Shown in pieces: positions 91 through 23,284 of a stretch of 36,605 nucleotides of DNA. The notes below the pieces were generated by a model, which was given only the letters and a program-made list of their open reading frames with translations, made no database searches and was not told the origin of the DNA. The stretch comes from a virus (lineage: Duplodnaviria; Heunggongvirae; Uroviricota; Caudoviricetes). Made by a program: the position numbers and the translations under genes. The stretch's first letter is position 1; every line of letters starts with the position of its first letter. The stretch lies in IMG/VR virus record IMGVR_UViG_3300029219_000015, one strand, 5' to 3'.

Positions 91-177
91 GGGGAGTTAG
101 TCCGTAGAGGTAGCGGTGTAGACTGTAAATCTACTGTCATGGCGACTCGGGTGGTTCGACTCCATCACTCCCCACCA
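91..177 (+). tRNA. tRNA-Tyr (anticodon GTA), long variable arm, CCA encoded
   Basis: Acceptor stem GGGGAGT/ACTCCCC; anticodon stem GTAGA/TCTAC with loop CTGTAAA; about 15-nt variable arm; T-loop TTCGACT; 3' A-CCA. Confidence 0.8.
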
Positions 178-181
178 AATT

Positions 182-257
182 GCCGGTTTAGCTCAGTTGG
201 TAGAGCAGTCGCTTTGTAAGCGAATGGCCAGCGGTTCAAGTCCGTTAACCGGCACCA
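182..257 (+). tRNA. tRNA-Thr (anticodon TGT), CCA encoded
   Basis: Acceptor stem GCCGGTT/AACCGGC; D-arm GCTC-AGTTGGTA-GAGC; anticodon loop TTTGTAA; T-arm AGCGG-TTCAAGT-CCGTT; 3' A-CCA. Anticodon stem has one mismatch. Confidence 0.7.
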
Positions 258-577
258 ACACAACAGGTAAGAGCATTGGGCGAATCGGCGATACTGACCC
301 ACAAGGCCGTAAATCGATAGAGTCAGACCAGTGCTCTTACCGTTGTGAGGAAGTGCAGCTCTTTGAAGCAACCAGAAGATAAGCATCTGGCTTCACAACA
401 CAACGATAATATCATTACGGTTAATCGTCGTTCATGTGCACAATGACTGGTCGAAAGGTAGTGATCTTACCGTTGTGATGAATGCACAGGCTGATGTGCC
501 GCAACTACAGTAGTGCGCGCTTTGCGGGGCTTGCTACAACCCTGTGTCGGAGTTCAGTACCGACCATCACAATAGCT

Positions 578-664
578 GGAGAGTAGGGAGCATGGTGCTC
601 AAGCGGTCTTGAAAACCGTCCCATTGTGCAAACGATGATGGTTCGATTCCATTACTCTCCGCCA
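578..664 (+). tRNA. tRNA-Ser (anticodon TGA), long variable arm, CCA encoded
   Basis: Acceptor stem GGAGAGT/ACTCTCC; anticodon stem GCGGT/ACCGT with loop CTTGAAA; long variable arm; T-loop TTCGATT; discriminator G then CCA. Confidence 0.8.
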
Positions 665-844: not shown

Positions 845-1753
845 TTAATGATTGCCTAGATATGATTTTAGTTCTTCTTTAATGATTAGTGAGTATTCTA
901 AAATATCACTTAGTAAAAATTTTGCTCTGTTAAAATACCCACCAAAAGAACCTAAAATTTCAGATGGTCTTTCTAAGAGCATCACAATATCATCTTCTTG
1001 CACTTTAGTAATGTAACTTCTAACAGCTCTTTCTCCAATAACTCTTTTCTTACCGTTTATTTCAGATTCATCTAAAACCTTATTTATAAATTTTTCTGTA
1101 TCATTGAATCGTCCACTATTGTGTACTATTGTATGTCTTAGTAGTTCAATTAGCTTGATGTTAAAGCGATAGTTTTTGCCAATCTTGTTGTTTGTTTCTA
1201 TCTCTTTGAAGCCAGGTATTTTATTTCTGAAAATTTTAGTTATTTTTTTCGATGGGTTACTTTTTGCTTTTAATAATCTGTAATAAACTTCCCTTTTCCC
1301 AATTTCATCATCTTCAACCTTACCAAAATCACTTGAGGACCATAAATCATTTCGAACACATACAGTATAGACATATATTGCCTCAATATAGTCTTCCAGT
1401 AACTCATAGGCTTCAGTAATAACCCACTGATATTGTTTATTTTTCAAAGTATTACACAATCTTATCTTTTCTTCTAAATCAATGGCGCTGTTACCTATCT
1501 CTAATGTTGAACCTGTATATGGGTTTGAACATAAATGGCGAGCTAACGTTGTGCCACACTTAATCTTAATAGTTTCATTAATATTAATAATAGTATCTGG
1601 ATTCTGTGCATACTCCACTTCTTTAAGAAGACGTTTTATATTTTTCTTTGTTGTATCATTTATCTGATTTAAATAATCAAAAAGTAAAGATATTTCTTCT
1701 CTAAATTCGTTGTATTTATTTTCAATCAAAGAATCAGACAACTTACCAATCAT
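845..1753 (-). CDS. Hypothetical protein on an AT-rich island; candidate HEPN/Abi-like defence protein (R-x4-H motif RHTIVH at about residues 206-211)
   Basis: 302-aa ORF with AGAGG 5 nt before the ATG; composition visibly far more AT-rich than flanks; K/E/I/N-rich; product assignment is inference from one short motif. Confidence 0.75.
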   Translation of the reverse strand: MIGKLSDSLIENKYNEFREEISLLFDYLNQINDTTKKNIKRLLKEVEYAQNPDTIININETIKIKCGTTLARHLCSNPYTGSTLEIGNSAIDLEEKIRLCNTLKNKQYQWVITEAYELLEDYIEAIYVYTVCVRNDLWSSSDFGKVEDDEIGKREVYYRLLKAKSNPSKKITKIFRNKIPGFKEIETNNKIGKNYRFNIKLIELLRHTIVHNSGRFNDTEKFINKVLDESEINGKKRVIGERAVRSYITKVQEDDIVMLLERPSEILGSFGGYFNRAKFLLSDILEYSLIIKEELKSYLGNH

Positions 1754-1926
1754 TAAAACCTCTATAAAATGTACATTTCAAGGCAATCCTTACTGTAATC
1801 TATTGTCGTAATCACTTCAATTGTTTACTAGTCAATCAATAAGTTACTACATACTTATCAAAAAAATCTGTTTGTAGTATAGTCTGATATGTTCGAATCA
1901 ATATTTATAAAGGTATTTGTTAAGTT

Positions 1927-15157: not shown

Positions 15158-16102
15158 GTGAATTATCTCTTCGTAGATGGCAATAGCCTGGGTTATTACC
15201 ACCAACAATCTGACAAATTGCACAACGGCGAAATGGAAGTACAGGCTGCTTTCGGCTTTGTTAAGAACGTCCGTCGTTATGCCTCCATCCTCCATGCCCG
15301 ACCTATGATTCTTTGGGATGGATTTAGTGACAAGCGTCGCGACTTTTACCCGGACTACAAAGCAAATCGCGACGACGATCCTGATATGAAAAAGATGAAG
15401 GAAGGCTTTGCTATCCAGAAGCCATACATCCTCAAAATGATGACCGCGCTTGGAGTTACCCAACTCATTGCAAAAGATGCAGAAGCGGATGATCTGGCCG
15501 GGCTGCTGGTATCCCGCATGGCACCGCAGCCAACCGTTGAACACATCTATCTGTTAACAGGCGATAGCGACTGGCTTCAGTTAGTTCGCGAAAACGTAAG
15601 CTGGGTAAGCCTGCGCGAAGACGCCAAAAACAAGCAGGTTAATTTTGAGCAATTTGCGGAGCTGACAGGATTCGCTACTCCTCGCGCATTTTTGGAAGCA
15701 AAAGCATTACAAGGCGATAAATCGGACAACATTAGCGGTGTTGGTGGCATTGGTGCTGGCGGTGCGAAAGAGCTGCTGCATGAATGGGGAAGTGTCGCAA
15801 CGATGGTACGCGGCATCAACGACGGCTCAATCGTGGTTGACAAAGGACGCCATAAGACCGCCTTCAACAAACTAGCGAAGAATGCCTTCAACGAGAAAAC
15901 AGGCTGTCGAATGCTCGAAGCGTTCAAGAGAAACATCACGCTAATGAACCTGATTGAGACGAAGTTTCCGCCTACCGAAATCGAAACAATCAAAGGCAAT
16001 CGTGACGTGAAAGCATTCGAGCAACTGTGCTACGAGCTGAATTTCCGTTCGTTCCTTGAAGACCTTGAAGTGTTTGTTCTTCCATTCGAAAGGTATTGCT
16101 AA
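15158..16102 (+). CDS. 5'-3' exonuclease / flap endonuclease (RNase H-like, FEN family)
   Basis: H3TH-type motif ALQGDKSDNISGVGGIGAGGAKELL and acidic residues in GDSDWLQL; start taken at the GTG at 15158 (GGAAGGA 8 nt upstream); an in-frame GTG at 15107 is the alternative. Confidence 0.75.
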   Translation: MNYLFVDGNSLGYYHQQSDKLHNGEMEVQAAFGFVKNVRRYASILHARPMILWDGFSDKRRDFYPDYKANRDDDPDMKKMKEGFAIQKPYILKMMTALGVTQLIAKDAEADDLAGLLVSRMAPQPTVEHIYLLTGDSDWLQLVRENVSWVSLREDAKNKQVNFEQFAELTGFATPRAFLEAKALQGDKSDNISGVGGIGAGGAKELLHEWGSVATMVRGINDGSIVVDKGRHKTAFNKLAKNAFNEKTGCRMLEAFKRNITLMNLIETKFPPTEIETIKGNRDVKAFEQLCYELNFRSFLEDLEVFVLPFERYC

Positions 16103-16368
16103 TGCTTAAATCGATTATCAATGGCGCTACAACCACCCCTGCCCAACTGGCAAAAGAGATTGTCTTTTATCACGGTGAGTACGCTGTCATCGCACTGCCG
16201 TCAATTCTAGGCGCTGCCGGAATGAAAGCGACAGATCGCGAGTTTGGATTAGTCAGCGAGCAGGTCGTAAAAATCCTCGCTCGTGTATCCAGACTCCTTA
16301 ACCACGATGCGATTGTATTCGATGAATCCGCCGCTTTAAAACGAATCAACGAAACAAAAGGAGCCTGA
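16102..16368 (+). CDS. Hypothetical small protein
   Basis: 88 aa from the ATG at 16102, which overlaps the FEN stop (TAATG); sits between FEN and recA. Confidence 0.5.
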   Translation: MLKSIINGATTTPAQLAKEIVFYHGEYAVIALPSILGAAGMKATDREFGLVSEQVVKILARVSRLLNHDAIVFDESAALKRINETKGA

Positions 16369-16370
16369 TC

Positions 16371-18710
16371 ATGGCAAAAGGAAAATCCGCACTGGCACTT
16401 GCTCTGAAAAAGAAAATCGGTAGCAACGACGAAATTCAGAAAGTAACTCATTGGATTGATACAGGCTTTCCACCGTTAAACAAAGCTATTTCTGGTCGTT
16501 ACGATGGCGGCTTCCCATGTGGTCGTATCGTCGAAGTATTCGGGCCACCAAGCGCGGGGAAATGTGTTACCGCAGACACCATGCTGCTGACGGAGCGTGG
16601 AATGGTAACAGTGAAAGAGTTGTTTGAGATTGAAGGGTACAAAGCGACATGCACTACTCGCGATGTAGAGCATAACGTTGGACTCATCAATGAAAATGGC
16701 GTGATAGAGAAGACCTCACACCTGACATGGAACAACCGTCGCAAATTCAAGCGTATTAAGCTGGCATCAGGCGGTTATATCGAGGCTACGTTCCGTCACC
16801 CAATCCGTGTGGTTGACGACTTAGGTAATGTCGTCTGGCGACATGCTGAAAAAATCAGTGTAGGCGACACGATTCCTTCAATGGTTGGCACACATCAATT
16901 CGGCGATCAGCACCTGGATGCCAATATCGCACAACTGATGGGCTATTTAATTGCTGACGGATACGTGGCCTCTGAAAATTCAGTGAATTTTTCTAACACA
17001 GATCCTTTCATCAAGGATGAGTACTACCGCCTCATTTCGCTGGTATCAGACAAGATGCCAGTTACGAGAAAACATAACGGCTCGGAAGACCATGTGCTGT
17101 TTAGCAAAGAGGTGCGTTCGCTGCTTTTTAAAGAATATGGTCTGGAGTATGAGAAAGCTGCTGGCAAGCAGGTTCCGTTGAGTGTGCGTCGCGCCAATAG
17201 CGAGGCTCAAATTGCATTCCTTCGCGGCTACTTTGAGCTGGAATGCCACGTCAATGATGGTCGCTGCATTGAGGTTGTGAGCGCGAGTGGGCTGCTGCTA
17301 CAGCAAATTCGCCTCATGCTCCTGAATCTGGGGATTACGTCAACTATCTCTGAAAAACACGTCGCGGGTTATGAAAATACATATTACCGGCTGTCATTCA
17401 GTGGCTCTAATTACGACCTTTTTCTGTCAACGATTGGTTTCGAATCTCCGGCACGTTTATCAGTGGCAACCAAACGGGACATTGGTTTTGACCGCACTTA
17501 CTCAGGCTATGTTCCGCACATCAGCGGCTTAGTGAAATCACTCTACGAGTCGCTCACCAAGACCACCCGTGAAGACTACGCTCTGGTAGACCACGTTATT
17601 GGCCGCGGCGATCGTGTCGGAATAGACAAACTGCGAGAAATCTATGTCTCCTTCATTGGCAGAAAGAATCGTTTTAACGAGCATCTGTTTGCACAACTGG
17701 CAGCGGTAATTGGCTCTAACTTGTTCTACGACGAAGTCGTGGCTATTGAGGAAGGTGAAGCACCAACGTTCGACGTAGCGATGCCGGAAACACACTCTTT
17801 CTGGTCTAACGGGATTATCAGCCACAACACATTCCTTGCAACAGCAGCGATGATCTCCGCTCAAAAACAAGATGGTCTGGCGGTATTCCTCGATCATGAA
17901 AACAGTTTTGACGTTGGCCTGGCTGTAGCCAATGGCCTGAACGCAGATGAGGATGACGGTCAGTGGGTATACAAGCAGCCAGATACCTTCGAAGACTCTG
18001 TAGAGTTGATCGGCACAATACTTAAATTGGTTCGTGATGAAGAGCTTATCCCCGAATCAGCACCTATCTGTATCGTGGCTGACTCTCTTGCGTCTATGGT
18101 TCCGAACTCCAAAGCCGAGAAGTTCGAAAAGATGGCTGAAGGCACAGCCAAAGACAAAGATCAGCTAAACATGAACGACAATACGGCACTGGCTCGTGCG
18201 ACGAGTGCGAACTTCCCTACTCTGGCTTTGTGGGCACGCAAATACAACGCCTGCATCATCTTCTTGAATCAGGTTCGCACAAAAATCGGTGTAATGTTTG
18301 GCGACCCTACTACGTCGCCAGGTGGAGATTCACCGAAGTTCTACGCTTCTGTACGTATCCGTCTTGGTGCATCGGTGATGAAGGATGGTAAAGAGAAGAT
18401 CGGCCAGGACGTAGGCGCAGAATGCATCAAAAACAAAGTTGCACCACCGTATGGCAAATGCACCTGGAAATTCTACTTCGATCCTACTCGTGGCCTCGAC
18501 GTTATCGAGTCGCTCGTCGAGTACATGCTGGAAGAAGGATACCTGCCAAAGAACGCCAGCGGTCGAGTAGAAATTGGTGACAAGAAATACACCAAATCAC
18601 AGATCGTCGAGATGTATCGGGAGAAGCCACTAGCTGAAATCATTGCGGCTTTACAGGCAATCGACGACCGGAGATCAAAAGACAATCCCACCGAGTCAGT
18701 AGAAGAGTAA
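16371..18710 (+). CDS. recA: RecA-family recombinase interrupted by an in-frame intein (precursor 779 aa; predicted mature protein about 357 aa)
   Basis: N-extein ends GRIVEVFGPPSAGK and the C-extein starts T, reconstituting Walker A GPPSAGKT; C-extein FLNQVRTKIGVMFGDPTTSPGGDSPKFYASVRIRLG matches the RecA core; AAAGGAG RBS. Confidence 0.85.
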   Translation: MAKGKSALALALKKKIGSNDEIQKVTHWIDTGFPPLNKAISGRYDGGFPCGRIVEVFGPPSAGKCVTADTMLLTERGMVTVKELFEIEGYKATCTTRDVEHNVGLINENGVIEKTSHLTWNNRRKFKRIKLASGGYIEATFRHPIRVVDDLGNVVWRHAEKISVGDTIPSMVGTHQFGDQHLDANIAQLMGYLIADGYVASENSVNFSNTDPFIKDEYYRLISLVSDKMPVTRKHNGSEDHVLFSKEVRSLLFKEYGLEYEKAAGKQVPLSVRRANSEAQIAFLRGYFELECHVNDGRCIEVVSASGLLLQQIRLMLLNLGITSTISEKHVAGYENTYYRLSFSGSNYDLFLSTIGFESPARLSVATKRDIGFDRTYSGYVPHISGLVKSLYESLTKTTREDYALVDHVIGRGDRVGIDKLREIYVSFIGRKNRFNEHLFAQLAAVIGSNLFYDEVVAIEEGEAPTFDVAMPETHSFWSNGIISHNTFLATAAMISAQKQDGLAVFLDHENSFDVGLAVANGLNADEDDGQWVYKQPDTFEDSVELIGTILKLVRDEELIPESAPICIVADSLASMVPNSKAEKFEKMAEGTAKDKDQLNMNDNTALARATSANFPTLALWARKYNACIIFLNQVRTKIGVMFGDPTTSPGGDSPKFYASVRIRLGASVMKDGKEKIGQDVGAECIKNKVAPPYGKCTWKFYFDPTRGLDVIESLVEYMLEEGYLPKNASGRVEIGDKKYTKSQIVEMYREKPLAEIIAALQAIDDRRSKDNPTESVEE
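16563..17828 (+). mobile_element. Intein (422 aa) with LAGLIDADG-type homing endonuclease motifs, inserted in the RecA P-loop
   Basis: Begins with Cys (CVTADTMLL), ends IISHN followed by extein Thr; internal LMGYLIADGYV and FLRGYFELECHV resemble LAGLIDADG motifs; boundaries inferred from extein continuity. Confidence 0.8.
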
Positions 18711-18714
18711 ACAC

Positions 18715-18740
18715 AAGGCGTCCACAGGACGCCTTTTTTA
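18715..18740 (+). terminator. Rho-independent terminator after recA
   Basis: GGCGTCC-ACA-GGACGCC followed by TTTTTT. Confidence 0.8.
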
Positions 18741-18802
18741 TCTCTTGAAAATATATAAGTGCTTACTTATCATTTTCACATAACAACCACATAGGAAAAC
18801 AC

Positions 18803-21448: not shown

Positions 21449-21495
21449 ATGCAAACTGACTGCGGCACGTTCCGCAGTCATATTTCATAGTCGTC

Positions 21496-22028
21496 ACCGC
21501 TGACAGCATACACAATCAACTGCCGCTGATAGCATATCGAGAGTCTATCTCACCGCTCACAGCATACTTTACTCGATTTTTTACCGCTGACAGCATACTT
21601 AAGACATTGCATGAATAATGTGTACCGGTATGGGTATAACCAGAACAAAATTACCGCTGGCAGCATACGAAGGTCTGACATATGCCATTAATTACCGCTG
21701 ATAGCATATCCAAACAAAAATTCCTCAATAAAACACCGCTGACAGCATACGTTCTATCAGGGAGCAGCAGGCAATAAATACCTTTCACTACAAGTAATCA
21801 GCGCAATGGGAATAGAATGTTAGTGAGCGCAAACCTATATGGAATGCACTCTTCGAGGTTAGTAACCACTGGGGAGGTATAAAAGAGCATTGAGTGGTGA
21901 TAGATGATTTACCGCTCACAGCATACGTTCATCTCACTATACCGCTGGTAGCATATCTTTAACCGTTCACAGCATACTTTTCAGAAAAATAGCCGCTGAT
22001 GGCATACATTTCACCGCTGACAGCATAT
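21496..22028 (+). repeat. Iteron array: 12 direct copies of a 16-17 bp repeat (consensus ACCGCTGACAGCATAC) in two groups (21496-21750, 21910-22028), immediately 3' of the rep-like gene
   Basis: Copies start near 21496, 21522, 21551, 21582, 21652, 21693, 21734, 21910, 21940, 21961, 21991 and 22012; all in one orientation, spaced 21-70 bp. Confidence 0.85.
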
Positions 22029-23122
22029 CAAAGCAGTTTGAGACTATTGGAAAGGATCTCAATCATCTTGATATTTTCAGGCGTCAAATTCTGCGAAAGT
22101 TCAGTTATCTTGTTGATAATGTTCTGTTTAGCATCAATTTCCCCGGCTTTCTCATCTGGTTTTTTGGGTTCGATGTCTTCAGGTTTTGGCGGTGCGACTT
22201 TAAGTTTTGGATTGCGGCTGTGAATCTGGATATAGATCGACCGCCCTCGCTTAATCTCGCTGTATTCGAGATAGCCCAAATCTTGGAGAGCTTTTAAGCC
22301 GTTACGTATAGTCTGATTCTGCGAGCTGACATTCCTGCTACTCAAATTGAGTCGCGCACGCAATCGAGCAAGCGATACCGGCGCAGGCTTGGTTGGAAGA
22401 CTTTCGATGAAGGTGTACAGAGCCTGTGCTGTTTCTTTGCGTGGTAGCTTATTGATAACCTTTAACTGCAAAAGAACCTTATGGTCAAAGCGATATAGTT
22501 CGGCCAGCTTCGGTTCTGCATAGAACACCACCGTATCTTTCTGCTCGTTGTAGTCCACGCTATTGATGAGGTGCACCATCAGAAGCGAGATCTTGTTAGA
22601 GCCGTCGACGTTCTTTTCTTCATACGTTCTCTGGAAAGACAGAGTTGTACGCATGATCTTCAAAAGACTGTTTGTAAGCCGGTCGCGGAGTGTTTTGCGG
22701 ATCTGTGACGATGGATAGCCACAAAACTTCGCAAATTTCGTGATGCTTAACTCGACACGACCGTTAGGTTCGCCGTATTCTGCCAGCGAACGCACAACGC
22801 CCACCCACGTTTTGAAATCATGATCCATGTCGAGACGAGGACCGGTTATCTTGATATCGGAATAGCCTTCAGAACGGGCTACTTCGAGCTGAACAAGCTC
22901 CTTTGAAGCATCGATCTCATTTGGCTTGTTACGCTTGCTGTATTTTGTCCCCTTGAGCGTGGGCACGAACAATCCCAGCCGCATCAACGCAATTGGTTGG
23001 ACTGTATTGTTGCTATTAGGGACAAGTTCCCCTGTGTACAATTCAAGGGAACCTTCTTCAAAGTTGTCGAGATTATCTTCTACTTCTTTGTTATTTTTAC
23101 CTTTTTTATTTTTTGTGGACAT
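22028..23122 (-). CDS. Candidate iteron-binding replication initiator (RepA-like)
   Basis: 364 aa from the ATG at 23122 (AAAGGTG RBS); flanked on both sides by the same direct repeats; basic C-terminal half; family assignment is inferred from context, not a recognised motif. Confidence 0.6.
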   Translation of the reverse strand: MSTKNKKGKNNKEVEDNLDNFEEGSLELYTGELVPNSNNTVQPIALMRLGLFVPTLKGTKYSKRNKPNEIDASKELVQLEVARSEGYSDIKITGPRLDMDHDFKTWVGVVRSLAEYGEPNGRVELSITKFAKFCGYPSSQIRKTLRDRLTNSLLKIMRTTLSFQRTYEEKNVDGSNKISLLMVHLINSVDYNEQKDTVVFYAEPKLAELYRFDHKVLLQLKVINKLPRKETAQALYTFIESLPTKPAPVSLARLRARLNLSSRNVSSQNQTIRNGLKALQDLGYLEYSEIKRGRSIYIQIHSRNPKLKVAPPKPEDIEPKKPDEKAGEIDAKQNIINKITELSQNLTPENIKMIEILSNSLKLL

Positions 23123-23142
23123 GTGGACACCTTTGTCATTCA

Positions 23143-23244
23143 ACCGCTGACAGCATACTTGATTTGCCGCTGGCAGCATACCAAAAACAGTTGGCAGCAT
23201 ACGGCGAACCGTTGACAGACTATCAATTACCGCTGACAGCATAC
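23143..23244 (+). repeat. Upstream iteron group: 3 full and 2 partial copies of the same repeat in the rep promoter region
   Basis: Full copies near 23143, 23165 and 23228; partial copies near 23190 and 23208. Confidence 0.8.
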
Positions 23245-23284
23245 ATGAACATGGCTTCAGACCAGTCGTGGCGCGGCTTACAGC

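What the first reader, a model, noticed from the sequence alone, without database searches (positions are those of the whole stretch)
16563..17828. Intein with LAGLIDADG-type motifs inserted exactly in the Walker A P-loop of a RecA homolog
The recA-like ORF is 779 aa instead of about 350. The sequence breaks after GPPSAGK at a Cys (CVTADTMLL...) and resumes after ...IISHN with Thr, so removing 422 residues restores GPPSAGKT and a contiguous RecA core. The insert has the expected intein ends (Cys1, terminal His-Asn, +1 Thr) and two LAGLIDADG-like motifs, the second of them degenerate. The recombinase would be inactive until splicing, and the element may home at the recA P-loop codon.
Basis: partly seen in the sequence, partly recalled or inferred. 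Interest (0 to 1): 0.75.

Follow-up and report, generated by a model that had tools for sequence, protein, structure and literature searches.

The report
Known RecA P-loop intein, phage-plasmid borne
The recombinase gene of this E. coli phage-plasmid is interrupted in its ATP-binding loop by a genuine self-splicing intein with a homing endonuclease; the element was already catalogued in 2015, so it is real and shows signs of continuing spread, but it is not new.

Summary
ORF 16371-18710(+) encodes 779 aa, and residues 65-486 (nt 16563-17828) are a 422-aa class-1 intein. It sits between Lys and Thr of the Walker A motif GPPSAGK|T of a phage RecA/UvsX-like recombinase.

All splicing residues and both LAGLIDADG catalytic acids (Asp132, Glu227) are present. 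Profile HMMs pass their curated cut-offs. An AlphaFold model best matches endonuclease-containing inteins. Removing the insert in silico gives a 357-aa protein that differs by one residue from natural intein-less alleles.

The window is an SSU5-type phage-plasmid, about 98% identical to Escherichia phage Cyrano. The intein is in 248 PLSDB plasmids and in 120 of 5426 complete E. coli genomes.

Intein DNA is 96.7-99.9% identical between alleles whose exteins are only 82-88% identical. All 11 sampled intein-plus alleles share one 17-nt flank that 0 of 11 intein-less alleles have. That indicates repeated homing with short co-conversion tracts.

Topilina et al. 2015 (NAR 43:6631) already list this intein as RecA insertion point c2, residues 65-486, in E. 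coli, Enterobacter and Salmonella. [quoted passage not shown] Verdict: interpretation supported, already known, modest interest. The phage-plasmid context and the homing footprint are the added value.

The parts
16371..18710 (+). Precursor gene: intein-containing RecA/UvsX-like recombinase, 779 aa plus stop
   Evidence: ORF list; Pfam RecA, Intein_splicing and LAGLIDADG_3; PHROG 9666 matched over its full length and PHROG 97 UvsX-like
16359..16363 (+). Ribosome-binding site AGGAG, 7 nt before the ATG; the stop codon of the upstream 90-aa ORF (16366-16368) lies in the spacer
   Evidence: Read directly from the sequence
16371..16562 (+). N-extein, aa 1-64, ending in the Walker A residues GPPSAGK
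   Evidence: Translation; identical motif in all 22 alleles compared
16563..17828 (+). Intein, 422 aa (protein residues 65-486)
   Evidence: same residue numbers as RecA-c2 in PMC4513877 Table 1
16563..16601 (+). Intein block A (CVTADTMLLTERG); Cys1 at 16563-16565
   Evidence: TIGR01445 intein_Nterm covers intein residues 1-83; coordinates
16770..16811 (+). Intein block B (GGYIEATFRHPIRV); Thr76 at 16788-16790 and His79 at 16797-16799 (TxxH)
   Evidence: aligned with relatives; invariant in 11 alleles
16935..16967 (+). LAGLIDADG motif 1, block C (LMGYLIADGYV); catalytic Asp132 at 16956-16958
   Evidence: Alignment to the Thermococcus VMA intein 7qss/7qsu; invariant in 11 alleles
17217..17252 (+). 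LAGLIDADG motif 2, block E (FLRGYFELECHV); catalytic Glu227 at 17241-17243
   Evidence: Pfam LAGLIDADG_3 covers intein residues 215-292; aligned to the Asp of the VMA intein; invariant in 11 alleles
17763..17828 (+). Intein blocks F and G (PTFDVAMPETHSFWSNG, then IISHN); Asp404, penultimate His421, terminal Asn422
   Evidence: TIGR01443 intein_Cterm; near-identical block in distant RecA inteins
17829..18710 (+). C-extein, aa 487-779; Thr+1 (ACA) at 17829-17831 completes Walker A as GPPSAGKT; contains the rest of the RecA core
16554..16562 (+). 5' co-conversion flank GCGGGGAAA, shared by all intein-plus alleles
   Evidence: Junction comparison of 11 intein-plus and 11 intein-less alleles
17829..17836 (+). 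3' co-conversion flank ACATTCCT, shared by all intein-plus alleles
   Evidence: no intein-less PLSDB allele has the joined flank
18715..18745 (+). Intrinsic terminator-like hairpin (9-bp stem, 6 GC pairs) followed by a T-run, directly after the stop codon

Best explanation
This is a class-1 intein with a nested double-motif LAGLIDADG homing endonuclease. It is inserted between Lys64 and Thr of the Walker A loop of the RecA/UvsX-like recombinase of an SSU5-type phage-plasmid. The gene is the last in a uvsY, gp32-like SSB, 5'-3' exonuclease, recA operon.

Shown by sequence and comparison: the position, all catalytic residues, the fold, and the exact restoration of an intein-less allele.

Inferred mechanism of splicing: the 779-aa precursor cannot bind ATP because the P-loop is split. 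Cys1 carries out an N-S acyl shift. Thr+1 attacks the thioester. Asn422 cyclises, helped by His421, and releases the intein. An O-N shift then yields the 357-aa recombinase and a free 422-aa intein.

Inferred mechanism of spread: when an intein-less phage-plasmid shares the cell, the endonuclease (Asp132 and Glu227) cuts its recA at the P-loop codons. Repair from the intein-plus copy installs the intein together with a few flanking bases.

The element is the one already published as RecA insertion point c2.
For: Curated HMM thresholds are passed for intein N-terminal and C-terminal regions, the intein splicing domain and LAGLIDADG_3.

The AlphaFold model (pLDDT 80.7, pTM 0.84) best matches endonuclease-containing inteins: TliVMA 7qss (E 8e-19, TM 0.69), PI-PfuI, PI-PkoII and PI-SceI.

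The spliced product in silico equals natural intein-less alleles apart from one residue and gives a single RecA domain match.

Cys1, Thr76, His79, Asp132, Glu227, Asp404, His421, Asn422 and Thr+1 are invariant, with no stop codons, in 11 alleles.

Exteins of intein-plus alleles have dN/dS of 0 to 0.12, so the host protein is still under selection and the intein must splice.

The intein has dN/dS 0.15-0.17 overall and 0.19-0.24 in the endonuclease region. Intein dS is 0.09 against extein dS of 1.4-1.5.

The intein is 96.7-99.9% identical across four extein lineages that are 82-88% identical to each other. Three of those lineages also contain intein-less alleles at 96-99% extein identity.

All 11 intein-plus alleles carry GCGGGGAAA|ACATTCCT and 0 of 11 intein-less alleles do (Fisher p = 3e-6). 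No such empty site occurs in PLSDB or IMG/VR.

Prior publication: PMC4513877 Table 1 lists c2 (65-486), including E. coli MS 145-7. That strain's plasmid protein differs from the window's by 2 of 779 residues.
Against: No experiment on splicing or DNA cleavage exists for this intein in the searchable literature.

The second motif ends in Cys rather than Gly.

The allele sample is 22 of more than 700 records, and the alleles are related, so the Fisher p-value overstates independence.

General recombination between phage-plasmids is frequent and could move the intein without endonuclease action. The chimeric intein in plasmid NZ_CP010153 shows that such recombination happens.

One intein-less Citrobacter allele also has ACA at Thr+1.
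Confidence: 0.85

Rival explanations
1. The intein splices, but its endonuclease is now inactive. Its presence in several recA lineages comes from ordinary homologous recombination between co-resident phage-plasmids and from vertical descent, not from homing.
For: Mosaic alleles exist. Plasmid NZ_CP010153 has a chimeric intein, and some intein-less E. coli and Shigella alleles have mosaic C-extein starts. The second motif departs from the consensus (Cys in place of Gly). No cleavage data exist.
Against: Conversion tracts end within about 9 nt of both intein ends in four separate extein lineages. That is expected for repair of a break at the insertion site, not for crossovers at random positions. 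Both catalytic acids are invariant. The endonuclease region has dN/dS of 0.19-0.24, whereas a dead endonuclease should drift towards 1 and be lost, as in the shortened relatives P0007 and P0013.
Confidence: 0.2
2. The insert is a non-splicing domain insertion or a dead element, and the interrupted recA is a pseudogene.
For: None specific. Splicing has not been shown experimentally.
Against: All splicing residues are intact in 11 alleles, and the ORFs of 779-781 aa are intact. Extein dN/dS is 0 to 0.12 among intein-plus alleles. The intein is carried by about half of E. coli SSU5-type plasmids, 120 of 243 genomes. IS-disrupted copies are rare exceptions.
Confidence: 0.03
3. The intein has been co-opted as a conditional post-translational switch. 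Splicing, and so recombinase activity, would respond to temperature, redox state or DNA damage, as reported for the Pyrococcus horikoshii RadA intein at the homologous site. This would not exclude mobility.
For: The insertion point is the same as in Pho RadA, where native exteins lock splicing and ATPase activity is compromised before splicing (PMC4513877; PMC8529194). The Cys1 nucleophile is redox-sensitive in principle. The intein is frequent in the population.
Against: The presence/absence polymorphism at over 96% extein identity and the recent spread fit a selfish element. Intein-less plasmids are equally common. Topilina et al. state that Pho RadA-like extein-intein orientations are not feasible for the E. 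coli RecA precursor because of steric clashes. No data bear on regulation.
Confidence: 0.1

Closest known systems
RecA intein at insertion point c2 (Topilina, Novikova, Stanger, Banavali and Belfort 2015, NAR 43:6631, PMC4513877)
   Same: This is the same element. It occupies residues 65-486 of a 779-aa RecA in E. coli, Enterobacter and Salmonella, in the P-loop. E. coli MS 145-7 is in their table, and its plasmid protein differs from the window's at 2 of 779 residues.
   Different: The paper lists it as a bacterial RecA intein. It never mentions phage (0 occurrences of the word) and reports no splicing, cleavage or population analysis for it. Here the host gene is shown to be the UvsX-like recombinase of SSU5-type phage-plasmids and is never chromosomal.
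Pyrococcus horikoshii RadA intein (insertion point c1)
   Same: It has the homologous insertion point at the end of the Walker A loop of a RecA-superfamily ATPase. Its splicing domain is a structural match (4e2t).
   Different: It is a mini-intein without an endonuclease, it is archaeal, and it shares little sequence similarity. The authors inferred independent invasion.
Mycobacterium tuberculosis (RecA-a) and M. leprae (RecA-b) RecA inteins
   Same: These are inteins in RecA. The M. tuberculosis intein also carries a LAGLIDADG endonuclease.
   Different: The insertion points differ: residues 252 and 206, at the monomer-monomer interface, against the P-loop here. The NCBIfam model for intein-containing RecA (NF007072) aligns the window's exteins around model position 71 and scores 100 bits against a cut-off of 1024.
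RecA P-loop inteins of Herelleviridae Bacillus phages (e.g. fHSPT3) and of assorted bacterial RecAs (P0007, P0012, P0013)
   Same: They share the GK|T/S insertion point, the full-length intein architecture and a near-identical F/G block HSFWSNGxISHN. Identity is 28-45%.
   Different: The host proteins and lineages differ. Several relatives have lost or degraded the endonuclease domain.
Staphylococcus phage Twort-like DNA helicase inteins
   Same: These are the nearest phage inteins outside RecA, at 32-34% identity over all 422 residues.
   Different: The host protein is a helicase, in Gram-positive myoviruses.
Endonuclease-containing archaeal inteins with solved structures (TliVMA 7qss, PI-PfuI 1dq3, PI-PkoII 2cw7) and yeast PI-SceI
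   Same: They share the overall architecture: a Hint splicing domain plus a double LAGLIDADG core. These are the best fold matches.
   Different: Sequence identity is only 10-22%, and the host proteins differ.

Membership tests
Intein, class 1 (Hint fold) | N-terminal Cys or Ser nucleophile (block A) | tested here: met
   Cys1 at 16563-16565. TIGR01445 scores 35.4 bits against a cut-off of 24.5. Invariant in 11 alleles.
Intein, class 1 (Hint fold) | Block B TxxH | tested here: met
   T76-F-R-H79.
Intein, class 1 (Hint fold) | Blocks F and G with penultimate His and terminal Asn, followed by Cys, Ser or Thr at +1 | tested here: met
   ...FDVAMPETHSFWSNGIISHN|T. TIGR01443 scores 17.8 bits against a cut-off of 15.6.
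Intein, class 1 (Hint fold) | In-frame insertion whose exact removal restores a conserved host protein | tested here: met
   The spliced product differs from natural intein-less alleles by one residue and gives a single RecA domain match.
Intein, class 1 (Hint fold) | Hint fold of the splicing domain | tested here: met
   AlphaFold model with pLDDT 80.7. Foldseek hits to many mini-intein structures and full inteins. This rests on a predicted structure, not a solved one.
Intein, class 1 (Hint fold) | Autocatalytic protein splicing | not testable with these tools
   The evidence is indirect: exteins are under purifying selection in intein-plus alleles (dN/dS 0-0.12).
LAGLIDADG homing endonuclease, double-motif, intein-nested | Two LAGLIDADG helices about 95 residues apart, each with an acidic residue at motif position 8 | tested here: met
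   LMGYLIADG with Asp132 and LRGYFELEC with Glu227. PF14528 scores 64-66 bits against a cut-off of 22.5.
LAGLIDADG homing endonuclease, double-motif, intein-nested | Endonuclease core fold | tested here: met
   Fold matches to PI-PfuI, PI-PkoII, PI-SceI and I-DmoI.
LAGLIDADG homing endonuclease, double-motif, intein-nested | Site-specific cleavage of the intein-less allele, and homing | not testable with these tools
   Indirect support only. The intein is 96.7-99.9% identical across exteins that are 82-88% identical. A shared 17-nt flank occurs in 11 of 11 intein-plus alleles and 0 of 11 intein-less alleles.
RecA insertion point c2 (PMC4513877) | Insertion between Lys and Thr of Walker A, residues 65-486 of an enterobacterial RecA | tested here: met
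   Identical residue numbers. The allele of the published strain MS 145-7 is 99.7% identical in protein sequence.
Bacterial RecA orthologue (TIGR02012 equivalog) | Score above the equivalog cut-off | tested here: not met
   132.5 bits against a cut-off of 325.3. PHROG 97 UvsX-like recombinase scores 283 bits. The gene is always on a plasmid or phage. It belongs to the RecA superfamily but is a phage paralogue, not the cellular RecA.
M. tuberculosis-type intein-containing RecA (NF007072) | Intein at RecA residue about 252, and a model score above the cut-off | tested here: not met
   100 bits against a cut-off of 1024. The insertion is at model position about 71.
SSU5-type phage-plasmid | Synteny and DNA identity with SSU5, pHCM2 and pMT1-like elements | tested here: met
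   The window is 97-99% identical to phage Cyrano over most of its length. SSU5 has the same gene order. Homologous recA genes occur in Yersinia pestis and Salmonella plasmids.

The most novel reading that the evidence does not exclude
The intein may be more than a passenger. On this reading its endonuclease acts as a gene-drive and competition weapon between co-resident SSU5-type phage-plasmids of clinical Enterobacteriaceae. It would cut rival intein-less plasmids at recA and convert them. Splicing of the P-loop intein would also be conditional, tying the plasmid's recombination-dependent replication to the state of the cell.
Probability: 0.12. Interest if true: 0.55.

Novelty: already known. 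Interest (0 to 1): 0.3.

Why it matters
E. coli is usually treated as free of inteins. This element is nonetheless present in about 2% of complete E. coli genomes and in roughly a third of SSU5-type plasmids across Escherichia, Klebsiella, Enterobacter, Citrobacter, Cronobacter and Salmonella.

Its existence has been published. What this analysis adds is that the host gene belongs to a phage-plasmid recombination module rather than to the bacterial chromosome, and that the intein shows a clear footprint of recent, repeated homing.

That makes it a convenient natural system for studying intein homing in E. coli. Intein-plus and intein-less partners at over 98% extein identity both exist, and inducible phage forms such as Cyrano and PhiR41_1 are available.

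It also exposes an annotation problem. Most RefSeq records name the whole precursor "LAGLIDADG family homing endonuclease", which hides the recombinase.

Tried and rejected
Literature searches that found nothing specific: intein + SSU5, LAGLIDADG + SSU5, intein + phage-plasmid, intein + pHCM2, intein + LF82, and intein + UvsX. The supplementary tables of Novikova 2016 are not held. The prior report turned up only when reading Topilina 2015 for the RadA site. A final search found no follow-up work.

The word-indexed protein search returned only 13 relatives. These were enough for an alignment, but the alignment is shallow.

I looked for an intein-less allele carrying the intein-type flank, which would mark precise loss or a naive donor site. 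There were 0 exact matches in PLSDB and 0 in IMG/VR.

I considered a perfect link between ACA at Thr+1 and intein presence and rejected it, because one Citrobacter intein-less allele has ACA. Only the combined 17-nt flank is exclusive to intein-plus alleles.

I considered membership of the M. tuberculosis RecA intein family and of the bacterial RecA equivalog and rejected both.

The low-GC 302-aa ORF had no Pfam or PADLOC match.

Full report
**1. Observation**

The window holds an ORF at 16371..18710 (+) of 779 aa. Translation reads ...EVFGPPSAGK|CVTADTMLLTERG...HSFWSNGIISHN|TFLATAAMISAQ.... Cys65 is encoded at nt 16563-16565 and Asn486 at 17826-17828.

In the precursor the Pfam RecA match is split into two stretches. 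After removing the insert in silico, a single RecA match covers residues 27-281 at 145.7 bits.

**2. What it is**

Curated profiles are passed:
- PF14890 Intein_splicing: 44-47 bits, cut-off 35.8.
- PF14528 LAGLIDADG_3: 64-66 bits, cut-off 22.5.
- TIGR01445 intein N-terminal region: 35.4 bits, cut-off 24.5.
- TIGR01443 intein C-terminal region: 17.8 bits, cut-off 15.6.

The canonical blocks can be placed as follows:
- Block A: Cys1.
- Block B: T76-x-x-H79.
- LAGLIDADG motif 1: LMGYLIADG, with Asp132.
- LAGLIDADG motif 2: LRGYFELEC, with Glu227.
- Block F: PTFDVAMPETHSFWSNG.
- Block G: IISHN, followed by Thr+1.

The second motif deviates from the consensus. It still keeps an acidic residue where the Thermococcus VMA intein has its catalytic Asp. 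From memory, PI-PfuI also uses a Glu at this position.

An AlphaFold model built on a 9-sequence alignment reached pLDDT 80.7 and pTM 0.84. Its best PDB matches are complete endonuclease-bearing inteins: TliVMA 7qss (E 8e-19, TM 0.69), PI-PfuI, PI-PkoII and PI-SceI. Mini-inteins, including Pho RadA, match the splicing domain, and I-DmoI matches the endonuclease core.

**3. Host gene and genome**

The extein belongs to the RecA superfamily but is not the cellular RecA. TIGR02012 scores 132.5 bits against a cut-off of 325.3, while PHROG 97 "UvsX-like recombinase" scores 283 bits.

The window is 97-99% identical to Escherichia phage Cyrano, apart from three swapped modules. Cyrano has the same length as the E. 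coli LF82 plasmid NC_011917. The window has the same gene order as Salmonella phage SSU5.

The gene is the last of a uvsY-like, gp32-like SSB, 5'-3' exonuclease, small ORF, recA operon. It has an AGGAG ribosome-binding site 7 nt upstream and a hairpin plus T-run terminator at 18715-18745. Every copy found in E. coli genomes is on a plasmid, and none is chromosomal.

**4. Natural intein-less alleles**

Escherichia phage CMS-2020a and many plasmids carry a 1074-nt recA without the insert. The window's exteins, joined in silico, differ from CMS-2020a at 22 of 1074 nt and at one residue (S347A).

In 22 alleles from eight genera the P-loop is always GPPSAGK|T. Whenever the intein is present it occupies residues 65-486.

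**5. Distribution**

- The intein DNA occurs in 248 PLSDB plasmids: Escherichia 123, Klebsiella 71, Enterobacter 41, and also Citrobacter, Shigella, Cronobacter, Kluyvera and Salmonella. It is at least 95% identical in 239 of them.
- Of 731 PLSDB records that match the gene, 237 carry the full intein-containing form.
- In complete E. coli genomes, 243 of 5426 have the gene and 120 have the intein.

**6. Evidence for mobility**

- Among intein-plus alleles from different extein lineages (33 pairs), C-exteins are 82.3-87.7% identical while the inteins are 96.7-99.9% identical.
- Synonymous divergence is about 0.09 in the intein and 1.4-1.5 in the C-extein.
- The nearest extein relative of each intein-plus allele is an intein-less one. 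The window pairs with NZ_CP025870 at 98.8%, Klebsiella CP041101 with OW967791 at 96.0%, and Enterobacter AP022453 with CP053644 at 97.5%.
- All 11 intein-plus alleles share GCG GGG AAA | ACA TTC CT at the junction, whatever their lineage. The 11 intein-less alleles vary at -7, -4, +3, +6, +7 and +9, and none has the 17-mer. Fisher p is 3e-6 and is inflated by relatedness.
- No empty site with that flank exists in PLSDB or IMG/VR.

Short tracts ending within about 9 nt of both intein ends in four lineages are what break repair at the insertion site predicts. Ordinary recombination would give scattered end points.

The endonuclease region has dN/dS of 0.19-0.24, and both catalytic acids are invariant.

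One allele, E. coli D9 plasmid A, has a chimeric intein plus about 33 nt of foreign C-extein. This shows that recombination also occurs within the element.

**7. Evidence that it splices (indirect)**

- All splicing residues are invariant, and the ORFs are intact, in 11 alleles.
- Exteins compared between intein-plus alleles have dN/dS of 0 to 0.12, so the recombinase is still under selection.
- The claim that the precursor is inactive is an inference from the split Walker A motif. It is supported by the published finding that ATPase activity of P. horikoshii RadA, interrupted at the same site, is compromised before splicing (PMC8529194).

**8. Comparison with what is known**

Insertion between the Walker A Lys and Thr is described as the "classic" P-loop intein position (PMC5050341).

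Topilina et al. 2015 (PMC4513877) mined RadA and RecA inteins and list "c2 (65-486)" for eight E. coli strains, two Enterobacter strains and one Salmonella strain. [quoted passage not shown]

E. coli MS 145-7 is on that list. Its plasmid NZ_CP146657 encodes a protein that differs from the window's at 2 of 779 residues. The element is therefore already known.

That paper does not mention phage and gives no splicing, cleavage or population data for this intein. No later paper in the searchable library follows it up.

RefSeq names a minority of copies "intein-containing recombinase RecA" and most "LAGLIDADG family homing endonuclease".

Relatives at 28-45% identity sit at the same GK|T/S position in other bacterial RecAs and in the RecA of Bacillus phage fHSPT3. 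Twort-like helicase inteins are the nearest relatives outside RecA.

**9. Verdict**

The element is a textbook class-1 intein with a probably active LAGLIDADG endonuclease, at a well-known hot spot, and it has been catalogued since 2015.

This analysis adds three things: the phage-plasmid context, the prevalence figures, and a clear co-conversion footprint of repeated homing. Interest is modest at 0.3.

Noticed in passing
window 845-1926 (ORF 845-1753, minus strand): An island of about 30% GC carries a 302-aa ORF that is absent from the otherwise 97-99% identical phage Cyrano. It has no Pfam or PADLOC match and may be variable cargo such as a defence or anti-defence gene.
   Followed up: partly
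window 91-664: There are three tRNA genes: Tyr-GTA, Thr-TGT and Ser-TGA. The set and its positions differ from the Asn, Thr and Ser genes annotated in Cyrano, so the tRNA region is variable. tRNA-Thr(UGU) decodes ACA, the Thr+1 codon linked to the intein, which is probably coincidence.
   Followed up: no
window 21449-23255 (ORF 22028-23242, minus strand, 404 aa): The replication-region module has no blastn match to Cyrano's RepA region. The window therefore carries a different replicon module in an otherwise colinear backbone.
   Followed up: no
L014 (CP059946), L015 (CP043243), L017 (NZ_CP034165): Some plasmids have the intein-containing gene broken by insertion sequences. One has about 771 nt with an 8-bp duplication inside the endonuclease domain. 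One has about 1162 nt in the C-extein. An E. albertii copy has its C-extein truncated next to an IS911-family transposase gene.
   Followed up: partly
L020 (NZ_CP010153, E. coli D9 plasmid A): The intein is chimeric. The first ~450 nt are of the window type. The part from about nt 775 onward is of the Klebsiella/Enterobacter type. The first ~33 nt of the C-extein come from the other extein lineage. This points to recombination between intein variants or a long one-sided conversion tract.
   Followed up: partly
L016 (NZ_CP146657, E. coli MS 145-7): The copy from the published strain sits on a 198-kb record typed as IncC plus rep_cluster_488 and conjugative. It looks like a cointegrate of an SSU5-type phage-plasmid with an IncC plasmid.
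   Followed up: no
window 16096-16368 (+): A conserved ORF of 88-90 aa of unknown function (WP_000920224 to WP_000920226 in relatives) lies directly upstream. Its stop codon falls between the recA ribosome-binding site and the ATG, which suggests translational coupling.
   Followed up: no
RefSeq and PLSDB records of the same gene: Annotation is inconsistent. Most precursors are named 'LAGLIDADG family homing endonuclease'. Others are 'recombinase RecA', 'hint domain-containing protein', 'hypothetical protein' or 'intein-containing recombinase RecA'. PHROG 9666, which is this protein, is labelled unknown function.
   Followed up: yes
P0004 (metagenomic protein, 478 aa, partial): A more distant phage-type RecA has an N-extein resembling the window's (…ISGRYDGGFPVGRIVEISGASSSGK|C…) and an intein 44% identical at the same site. 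The association between this intein family and this recombinase family may therefore be old.
   Followed up: no
L022 (NZ_CP057631, Citrobacter, intein-less): This is the only sampled intein-less allele with ACA at the Thr+1 codon. It differs from the intein-type flank at -7 and +6. It could be an informative natural substrate for testing endonuclease specificity.
   Followed up: no
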